From NCBI GenBank assembly GCA_964016885.1, contig CAXHJY010000661.1, positions 1 to 64,000 on the forward strand: a stretch of DNA of 64,000 nucleotides, written 5' to 3'. Positions within the stretch are counted from its first letter, which is position 1. Each line of letters begins with the position of its first letter. This document shows positions 56,437 through 57,119 of the stretch, piece by piece. The notes under the pieces were generated by a model. The model was given only the letters and a program-made list of their open reading frames with translations. It was not told where the DNA came from and ran no database searches. Source of the DNA: Eledone cirrhosa (taxonomy: Eukaryota). A program made the position numbers and the translations under genes.

Positions 56437-56469
<33 letters not shown>

Positions 56470-56483
56470 ATATATATATATAT

Positions 56484-56575
56484 AGTAAAAAATTGAACGG
56501 GAACAAAACAGAGAGGCAGTACGAACAAAGGTTTATTAGTTTCACGCTCTTGAGAGTGGGGTGGTGGTGGGGAAC
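56484..56575 (-). mobile_element. PLE 3' fragment (family of 39380-39630) beginning at the predicted HHR cleavage site
   Basis: Matches 39380-39468 and stops where GAAACGTC would begin. Confidence 0.8.
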
Positions 56576-56589
56576 AAAAAGATGAGTAT

Positions 56590-56659
56590 TGACGTACCTG
56601 GGAGTCGAACCCACATCTTTGGTTATCCGGACCACTGTGCTACCATTTACACCAACACA
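56590..56659 (-). tRNA. tRNA-like sequence (pseudogene or SINE head) with trailer and TTTTT
   Basis: TGGTGTAAATGGTAGCAC D region, TGGT/ACCA anticodon-like stem, GGGTTCGACTCCC T arm; acceptor stem imperfect. Confidence 0.6.
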
Positions 56660-57119
56660 ATATGTGTGTGTGAGTGTGTGTGTGTGTGTGTGTGTACAAA
56701 CTTAACTATAGAACAAAATCGAAGACATAATCAAACTAGTTGACCTTAATAAGAATGATGTTTTTCCAATGAGTTAATTCTGTAACTATCGAAGCTTCCT
56801 GCTGAAGACTTCTCCTTTTAATTATTCTAAACATGACAGACTTATGTATGTATGATATTTATGTTGAATTAGACAAATCTACATTATAGTTCTTCTCTGG
56901 ATGAATGCCCCACCCCCTCGTATACAACTGTATATTCAGTATGCATTTTCCTCAATCAGAAGAAACACAGATTTTTTCCTATGAAATCAATCTTTGTTCT
57001 TTGTTGAGGTAAGTTCATATTTAGTTTGACCTCGTCATCATCTTCGTCTTAGTTTTCGTTGGATGAACGAAAGAATCATATTAAAAATGCAAACAAAAAA
57101 AAAAAAATACAGGAAGAAA

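What the first reader, a model, noticed from the sequence alone, without database searches (positions are those of the whole stretch)
56484..56659. tRNA-like RNA fused exactly at a predicted hammerhead cleavage site
Seen: on the minus strand a tRNA-like sequence, a short trailer and TTTTT are joined to GTTCCCCACC.... In the longer copy at 39467-39498 that sequence follows GAAACGTC, so the junction is at the predicted GUC cleavage position. Established: HHR 3' products carry a 5'-OH, and U6/L1 chimeras arise by RNA ligation or template switching. Inference: this is a fossil of in vivo cleavage followed by ligation or RT template jumping to a Pol III transcript. It could also be a nascent PLE-mobilised SINE.
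Basis: partly seen in the sequence, partly recalled or inferred. Interest (0 to 1): 0.78.

Follow-up and report, generated by a model that had tools for sequence, protein, structure and literature searches.

The report
Fossil of Penelope hammerhead self-cleavage
This 176-base insert joins the tRNA-like head of one common repeat to the tail of a Penelope-like jumping gene exactly at the predicted cut site of that gene's hammerhead ribozyme, and truncated copies across the genome pile up just 3' of that site and drop about tenfold just 5' of it, which likely records the ribozyme cutting its own RNA in living cells.

Summary
The junction is real. The 84-nt head is not a tRNA gene. It is a piece of a tRNA-headed repeat (family A, 1082 exact 31-mer matches), and its TTTTT is internal to that repeat. 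The 92-nt tail is the fixed 3' end of a Penelope-like element (family B), starting at the predicted hammerhead cut. The fusion is not a SINE family: 2 copies were found genome-wide, independent, both at that base.

The wider result matters more. B 5' ends are about 10-fold denser in the 25 nt 3' of the cut than elsewhere (15 of 99 unbiased copies, p=3e-9). Genome-wide they drop at the scissile bond: 61 ends at +4..+1, 15 at -1..-10, none at -1. Ends exactly at +1 often carry other retroelement sequence (6 of 15, against 0 of 14 at +7..+25).

Best reading: the hammerhead cuts in vivo, reverse transcriptase runs off the cut end and sometimes jumps to another RNA. RNA ligation and a transcription start at the same base are not excluded, and no RNA data were available. 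The mechanism is known for R2 elements; my searches found no report of it for Penelope elements, whose hammerhead function is described as open.

The parts
56576..56659 (-). Family A fragment: tRNA-fold head (about 56659-56590; A-box-like 56654-56643, B-box-like 56611-56601, labels from established knowledge), 9-nt trailer, T5 (56580-56576). Starts 2 nt inside the tRNA fold.
   Evidence: 1 mismatch in 84 against natural copy L007, which continues CCATTTCTCC
56484..56575 (-). Family B (Penelope-like element) tail, +1 to +92 after the predicted hammerhead cut; +92 is the family's fixed 3' end
   Evidence: 0 mismatches in 92 against L042, where it is preceded by GCCCGAAACGTC
56452..56483 (.). (TA)n target at the 3' end of the insertion
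56663..56695 (.). (CA)n microsatellite on the 5' side of the insertion
39469..39496 (-). Minimal hammerhead in the longer B copy: CUGAAGA core, unpaired A, helix II GGGC-UUAU-GCCC, GAAAC-GUC with palindromic ACGU; predicted cut 39469/39468
   Evidence: features as in PMC4209133
39384..39588 (-). Longer family B copy: end of 3' UTR, hammerhead and tail
   Evidence: 96-97% identity over about 205 nt to the top genome matches

Best explanation
The insert is a one-step chimera of a family A head and a Penelope-like element's tail, likely made when the element's reverse transcriptase ran off an RNA that its hammerhead had cut and jumped to a family A RNA. Steps: (1) shown: B copies share one 3' end at +92 next to (TA)n, while full units continue past it, so copying starts inside the RNA. 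(2) Shown: B 5' ends pile up at +1..+25 and fall about tenfold at the predicted scissile bond. (3) Inferred: some templates physically begin at +1 because the hammerhead cut them in vivo; most copies read through +1, from uncut or re-joined RNA. (4) Inferred: on cut templates the enzyme stops a few bases short and joins the TA target by microhomology, or reaches the last base and jumps to a nearby RNA. (5) Shown: the acceptor here and on contig C1 is family A at its T run. Whether that is a Pol III 3' end or an internal site is open (about even).
For: Unbiased 100-copy sample, 99 resolved: hazard 0.11%/nt at +62..+26 (4 ends), 0.63%/nt at +25..+1 (15), 0.06%/nt at -1..-60 (3), 0.13%/nt at -61..-160 (10); zone against all other bins 10.1-fold, p=3.4e-9. 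Genome-wide list of AT-flanked ends, 79 loci read by hand: 61 at +4..+1, 15 at -1..-10, p=1e-20; 13 at +1 against 7 over six upstream G/C positions (p=3e-7); 43 at +2/+3 against 8 over four upstream A/T positions. Seven other C-rich tracts of similar score hold 0-3 ends each, against 13 here. No ends at -8/-9, the foot of helix II. Of 50 copies not preceded by C, 16 are cut exactly at +1; 6 of 15 independent ones are joined to retroelement sequence, against 0 of 14 ends at +7..+25 (p=0.011; 0.020 without the window copy). The C1 chimera has 8 extra bases, and four +1 junctions (3 events) go to internal B sequence. The one strongly variable core position is N7 (A100/G38 of 138). R2 elements make such jumps from a ribozyme-cut end to tRNA and U12 (PMC3414825).
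Against: No RNA data: no RNA run was listed, and cleavage was not assayed. Helix I is only 2 bp, and predicted folds pair the core elsewhere, as monomer and as dimer. In a lizard element no RNA-seq reads began or ended at the cut, and hammerhead mutants still inserted in vitro (PMC11167929). +1 is not a spike: only 2 of 69 zone ends in the hand count are at +1. 80 of 95 copies at risk read through the site. None of 25 family A insertions ends at the T run, so an RNA ending there is not independently shown. Positions were read by eye, and +4/+3/+2 cannot be told apart beside a TA run. The jump test compares two differently drawn sets, and +1 junctions preceded by C are missed.
Confidence: 0.62

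Rival explanations
1. The hammerhead cuts in vivo, and an RtcB-type ligase joins the 5'-OH product to a U-tailed family A RNA before reverse transcription, as for U6/L1 chimeras.
For: The window junction is clean, T5 straight to +1. T5 and T7 fall in the 4-8 T range of U6/L1 junctions (PMC6789731). RtcB circularises hammerhead-cut retrozyme RNA in vitro (PMC7229834).
Against: The C1 chimera has 8 extra bases. Other +1 junctions go to internal B sites, one with 2-nt microhomology, and one to the opposite strand of a third family. Ligation needs a 2',3'-cyclic phosphate on the donor, which is not shown for family A RNA.
Confidence: 0.15
2. The RNA 5' end or stop at +1 has another cause: a transcription start in the pseudo-LTR that coincides with GUC|G, or a stall after the G-rich cDNA tract +18..+4. 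The jump to family A then follows as in the best explanation.
For: Penelope elements start transcription in the pseudo-LTR (PMC6765202). C|G is a pyrimidine-purine step (established initiator rule, recalled). The plateau of ends overlaps the C-rich tract.
Against: In Drosophila Penelope a 75-bp intron starts 46 bp after the start site (PMC2377424) and ends at helix I (PMC4209133), so the start is over 120 nt upstream of the cut. Equally C-rich tracts upstream show no pile-up. A start site falling on the scissile bond would be a coincidence.
Confidence: 0.15
3. A DNA-level accident: one element inserted into or beside the other in a shared TA run, or a deletion fused them through TTCC microhomology.
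For: Both families target (TA)n and can lie side by side (L145). A reads TTTTTCC where B reads GTTCC.
Against: None of four diagnostic motifs for the missing parts of A or B lies within about 1.5 kb of either chimera. A TTCC-mediated deletion would drop the G at +1, which both chimeras keep. Two independent events hit the same base.
Confidence: 0.05
4. The fusion is a nascent SINE family (tRNA head plus Penelope tail) that has begun to spread.
For: It has a promoter-like head and the family's priming tail, and there are 2 copies.
Against: The exact junction is unique. The 2 copies differ in junction, tail variant and 5' end. The T run would be expected to stop Pol III before the tail (established knowledge).
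Confidence: 0.03

Closest known systems
R2 5' junctions with tRNA or U12 snRNA in Drosophila (PMC3414825; passages read)
   Same: A small RNA sequence fused at the ribozyme-made 5' end of a retroelement RNA, explained by a template jump in vivo.
   Different: R2 has an HDV-like ribozyme at the 5' end of the full element and primes at the RNA 3' end. Here a minimal hammerhead lies 92 nt upstream of an internal priming site, so the product is a tiny insert, and the acceptor is a repeat, not a cellular tRNA (no CCA).
U6/L1 chimeric pseudogenes (PMC6789731; passages read)
   Same: A Pol III-type head ending in a short T run fused to a 5'-truncated retroelement 3' end.
   Different: The L1 break points are variable and the join is by RtcB ligation; here both breaks are at one ribozyme site, and one junction has extra bases.
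Endonuclease-positive Penelope-like elements with minimal hammerheads, Neptune/Nematis type (PMC4209133 parts 1-2 of 4; PMC11167929 parts 1-2 of 4; PMC8557442 passages)
   Same: Family B has the RT, CX4CxxC linker, C-terminal GIY-YIG, partial pseudo-LTR, minimal hammerhead, internal priming and tail, and a microsatellite target.
   Different: These papers describe in vivo hammerhead function as unshown or unclear; none of the passages I read maps genomic 5' ends against the cut site.
Animal non-LTR retrozymes (PMC7229834 passages; bioRxiv 10.64898/2026.07.22.740005 part 1 of 5) and non-autonomous Chlamys elements such as MRC1 (PMC8557442 passages)
   Same: Short non-coding tandem repeats thought to ride on Penelope machinery; family A has a 270-nt tandem unit and Penelope-like insertion forms.
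   Different: Family A has a tRNA fold and no hammerhead core on its sense strand, and no similarity to B was found.

Membership tests
EN+ Penelope-like element (family B) | RT domain of Penelope type | tested here: met
   RVT_1 E=5.8e-5, below the curated cut-off; Atlas hits 0.95-0.97 to eukaryotic RT clusters; DKG and YIDD motifs in the translations. No tree was built.
EN+ Penelope-like element (family B) | C-terminal GIY-YIG endonuclease | tested here: inconclusive
   GIY-YIG E=0.008, below cut-off, in 1 of 2 fragments; motif VYGLRC..TYVGQT lies after the RT; copies are frameshifted.
EN+ Penelope-like element (family B) | Partial tandem forming pseudo-LTRs, with hammerhead and tail | tested here: met
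   L294: 5'-truncated repeat with hammerhead, 4.4-kb unit, second hammerhead, 92-nt tail; 1 of 16 long copies fetched is full length.
Neptune/Nematis clades | CX2-5CxxC linker and microsatellite targeting | tested here: met
   CSLPRCNTC in L294; (TA)n at 3' ends; definition from PMC8557442. Clade not tested by phylogeny.
Minimal type I hammerhead | CUGANGA and GAAA core, extra base after A9, G10.1-C11.1 pair, palindromic 15.2-16.2 | tested here: met
   All present; N7 is the strongly variable core position across 138 copies; features from PMC4209133.
Minimal type I hammerhead | Helix I of 4-5 bp (2 bp in D. virilis) | tested here: inconclusive
   Only 2 bp (C-G, A-U; 9 of 138 copies have G-U); predicted minimum-energy folds do not form it.
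Minimal type I hammerhead | Self-cleavage at NUH, as a dimer | not testable with these tools
   Only the indirect genomic footprint.
SINE family (the fusion itself) | Many copies sharing one head-tail junction | tested here: not met
   2 copies with different junctions.
tRNA gene (the head) | Free-standing cloverleaf with canonical anticodon arm | tested here: not met
   Part of a 270-nt repeat with 1082 exact 31-mer matches; 22.5 bits, below the Rfam cut-off; the anticodon loop has C33 and U37 (read from the alignment).
tRNA-derived SINE mobilised by a Penelope element (family A) | Penelope-type insertion forms: internal 3' ends, partial tandems, inverted 5' partner, TA target | tested here: met
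   Of 25 independent insertions: 13 with inverted partner, 12 starting upstream of the head, 21 with TA at the 3' end; 22 of 25 3' ends at u170-182 or u216-228.
tRNA-derived SINE mobilised by a Penelope element (family A) | 3' sequence shared with the partner element | tested here: not met
   No blastn-short hit to B or to the third family; other Penelope families were not tested.
tRNA-derived SINE mobilised by a Penelope element (family A) | Pol III transcription | not testable with these tools
   A- and B-box-like motifs are present; no RNA run was listed.

The most novel reading that the evidence does not exclude
Penelope hammerheads cut in vivo and leave a countable genomic fossil: a step in 5' ends at the scissile bond plus template-jump chimeras, which can be read from any assembly. 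The jump acceptor, family A, is itself a tRNA-headed SINE-like family spread by Penelope machinery, with a tRNA fold where retrozymes have a hammerhead.
Probability: 0.35. Interest if true: 0.78.

Novelty: new variant of a known kind. Interest (0 to 1): 0.6.

Why it matters
Whether Penelope hammerheads cut in cells is an open question. [quoted passage not shown] A tenfold step in 5' ends at the predicted bond is indirect germline evidence that cut RNA exists and is copied. It gives a purely computational test for other hammerhead-bearing families. It also suggests that cut, un-rejoined RNA is a dead end that yields tiny inserts and chimeras, while productive copies need uncut or circularised RNA. 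The single locus alone is an ordinary kind of retro-chimera.

Tried and rejected
ARAGORN on the window found no tRNA. The Rfam scan of the whole window listed mostly sub-threshold microsatellite and hairpin matches (150 of 213 rows shown), and there was no hammerhead hit at 39400-39560. Sequencing runs: no RNA holder listed. In contigs of 4 runs of unknown kind no listed piece spans the junction; loose ends at 56575/56576 show the two parent families. Neither result counts for or against. The first truncation pattern was swamped by repeated matches and was replaced. 1 of 100 sampled copies (L202) could not be anchored and was dropped; ends beyond -400 were not scored, and some end positions were corrected by eye for TA overhangs. 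I looked for a pool of family A copies ending at the T run: of 42 matches (41 displayed; the window copy was not in that display), most are long T runs, internal deletions or ends of inverted arms, and one is a tiny TA-flanked piece. The 8-nt spacer of the C1 chimera has no exact match in 116 upstream B stretches, although similar TTTTATCATG and TTTTGATCATG motifs occur, so its origin is open. Literature searches that found no report of this footprint or of Penelope-driven tRNA SINEs: (open-licence PubMed Central and bioRxiv only). The paper on dimeric cleavage of Penelope hammerheads (PMC5785218) is not held. No supplements were read; Fig. S2 of PMC11167929 and the supplements of PMC4209133 may bear on novelty. 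Repbase could not be checked.

Full report
OBSERVATION. The minus strand at 56659-56484 reads: tRNA-like sequence, ATACTCATC, TTTTT, then GTTCCCCACC...TTTTTTACT, then (TA)n, with (CA)n on the other side. The 22-mer after the T run occurs twice in the window, with 0 expected by chance. At 39468 it follows CTGAAGA-AGGGCTTATGCCC-GAAACGTC, so the junction is at the predicted cut, 39469/39468. The genome is 3.0 Gb and rich in microsatellites. It looks cephalopod-like to me from recall of its SINEs; I did not test this.

THE HEAD. The first 84 nt match a repeat, family A, at 98-99% (1 mismatch against L007). An exact 31-mer occurs 1082 times, counting tandem units and both arms of inverted pairs. 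The unit is about 270 nt. ARAGORN calls a tRNA in 8 of 9 loci scanned. The T run is internal: 57 of 72 sites read T5 then CCAT. In 25 independent insertions (30 loci, 5 dropped as partner arms or overlaps), 21 end in TA, 22 have 3' ends at two internal zones (u170-182, u216-228), 13 have an inverted 5' partner, 12 begin upstream of the head, 9 begin at about the first 12 bases of the unit, and none ends at the T run. These forms match published descriptions of Penelope insertions (PMC8557442, passages). That A rides on Penelope machinery is an inference; no sequence shared with B was found.

THE TAIL. The last 92 nt are identical to the 3' end of family B. There are 1330 exact matches to the +1..+22 motif and 2719 to a motif near the 3' end. 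One of 16 long copies fetched, L294, is a full unit: truncated repeat with hammerhead, continuation past +92 into a 5' UTR, frameshifted RT, CX4CxxC linker and GIY-YIG motifs, long C/A-rich 3' UTR, second hammerhead, tail, (TA)n. Pfam matches are weak (RVT_1 E=5.8e-5; GIY-YIG E=0.008), and the Atlas agrees on an RT. A fixed 3' end inside the unit fits the internal priming shown for a lizard element (PMC11167929, parts 1-2 of 4). The hammerhead has the published minimal features (PMC4209133, parts 1-2 of 4). N7 is the strongly variable core base (A100, G38 of 138 copies). Helix I is only 2 bp, and predicted folds do not form the active shape.

HOW MANY CHIMERAS. The exact junction is unique. 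Allowing a 50-nt gap gives 2 loci: the window and C1:84972152. The second has T7, 8 extra bases, a shorter head and a different tail variant, so it is independent. It also starts B at +1. Four diagnostic motifs for the missing halves are absent within about 1.5 kb of either locus.

IS +1 SPECIAL? (a) Unbiased sample: the first 100 listed matches to the 3' motif, all on C1, 99 resolved. Ends: 4 at +62..+26, 15 at +25..+1, 3 at -1..-60, 10 at -61..-160, 3 at -161..-300, 0 at -301..-400. The zone is 10.1-fold above all other bins (p=3.4e-9) and 5.8-fold above the stretch 3' of it (p=5e-4), so this is not a simple decline with length. (b), 83 loci counted by hand from the first 100 of 1831 rows: 69 in +1..+25, 11 in -1..-35, 3 at +26, and only 2 exactly at +1. 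(c), the whole genome-wide list, 79 loci by hand: +5: 1; +4..+1: 61 (13 at +1); -1: 0; -2..-10: 15; 2 ambiguous beyond -10 left out. The step holds when G/C and A/T positions are compared separately (p=3e-7 and 8e-14), which controls for microhomology with TA. (d) Seven other C-rich tracts hold 0-3 ends each against 13 here, and the foot of helix II holds none. (e) Of 50 copies not preceded by C, 34 continue upstream and 16 are cut at +1. Seven of the 16 (6 of 15 events, since two are one duplication) are joined to retroelement sequence: A twice, B three times, a third family once. None of 14 sampled ends at +7..+25 is (p=0.011; 0.020 without the window copy). So the site is the sharp edge of a plateau, and the place where jumps occur.

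MECHANISM. Shown: the fixed 3' end, the step in 5' ends, the excess of templated joins at +1, and two independent A-B chimeras. Inferred: in vivo cleavage makes a template that begins at +1; the enzyme primes at +92, nears the end, and either joins the TA target a few bases early or jumps from the last base. Most copies (80 of 95 at risk) read through, which needs uncut or re-joined RNA, as proposed in PMC4209133. Jumping is favoured over ligation by the 8 extra bases and by joins to internal B sites. Family A may offer a Pol III 3' end at the T run, or an internal landing site, since TTTTTCC resembles GTTCC; the data do not decide. Against the model: no RNA evidence here, weak helix I, and the negative RNA-seq and mutant results in the lizard element. 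A start site at +1 is not excluded, though in Drosophila it lies over 120 nt upstream (passages of PMC2377424).

COMPARISON. It works like R2 jumps from a ribozyme-cut end to tRNA or U12 (PMC3414825, passages) and looks like U6/L1 chimeras (PMC6789731, passages). B files as an EN+ Penelope-like element, probably Neptune or Nematis type (no tree built). The fusion fails the SINE-family test. Also consulted: PMC7229834, PMC6765202, PMC13282606 and PMC10886601 (passages) and bioRxiv 10.64898/2026.07.22.740005 (part 1 of 5). Ten literature searches found no report of a 5'-end step at Penelope hammerheads or of a Penelope-driven tRNA SINE; subscription papers, Repbase and supplements were not seen. 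Earlier scan notes had nothing on this genome or sequence; a word search gave notes on other genomes, which I did not test.

VERDICT. Real; a rare chimera of a known kind, not a new family. Its interest lies in the genome-wide footprint it led to, which bears directly on an open question and can be tested in other assemblies. New variant of a known kind; interest 0.6.

Noticed in passing
family A, e.g. L018:1225-1970, L029, L298-L327: A tRNA-headed 270-nt repeat with Penelope-like insertion forms and no hammerhead. 5' ends cluster at the start of the tRNA fold, and several arms start at u83-95 just past the T run. Leader and trailer pair into a long stem under the cloverleaf (z=-1.7, not significant overall). 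It could be a Penelope-driven SINE, possibly processed at the tRNA fold.
   Followed up: partly
window:48570-48770 and window:39167-39340: A third family (C) forms perfect fold-backs with TA at the outer ends. Read from the centre outward it has CTGATGA..GAAAC followed by about 100 nt, a layout like another Penelope pseudo-LTR end, but its helices fit a hammerhead poorly.
   Followed up: partly
L117 (G000:C4:66642428): A B tail starting at +1 is joined head to head to family C through a 3-nt overlap that falls inside C's hammerhead-like motif; possibly two cDNAs primed on opposite strands and joined at their ends.
   Followed up: partly
window:39589-39628 (-): The window's longer B copy is itself composite: about 110 nt upstream of the cut it switches to about 40 nt resembling the element's 5' UTR (by eye). 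L071 looks similar.
   Followed up: no
L150 (G000:C1:338078747): A family A arm ending at T5 is joined to ATAAAGTACCAGT..., which resembles the 3' part of the SINE-like repeat at window 57310-57170.
   Followed up: no
window:12777-17541; window:59119-61250: Tandem arrays of 10 x 474 bp (98% matches) and 17.5 x 122 bp (97%).
   Followed up: no
L283, L289, L290, L292, L294, L295: Long ORFs of other retroelements lie next to B copies, among them 1204-aa and 1073-aa LINE-like frames and other Penelope-like frames on the opposite strand.
   Followed up: no
run X5: A second organism's contigs hold diverged relatives of both family A and family B, so both families predate that split or are shared.
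   Followed up: no
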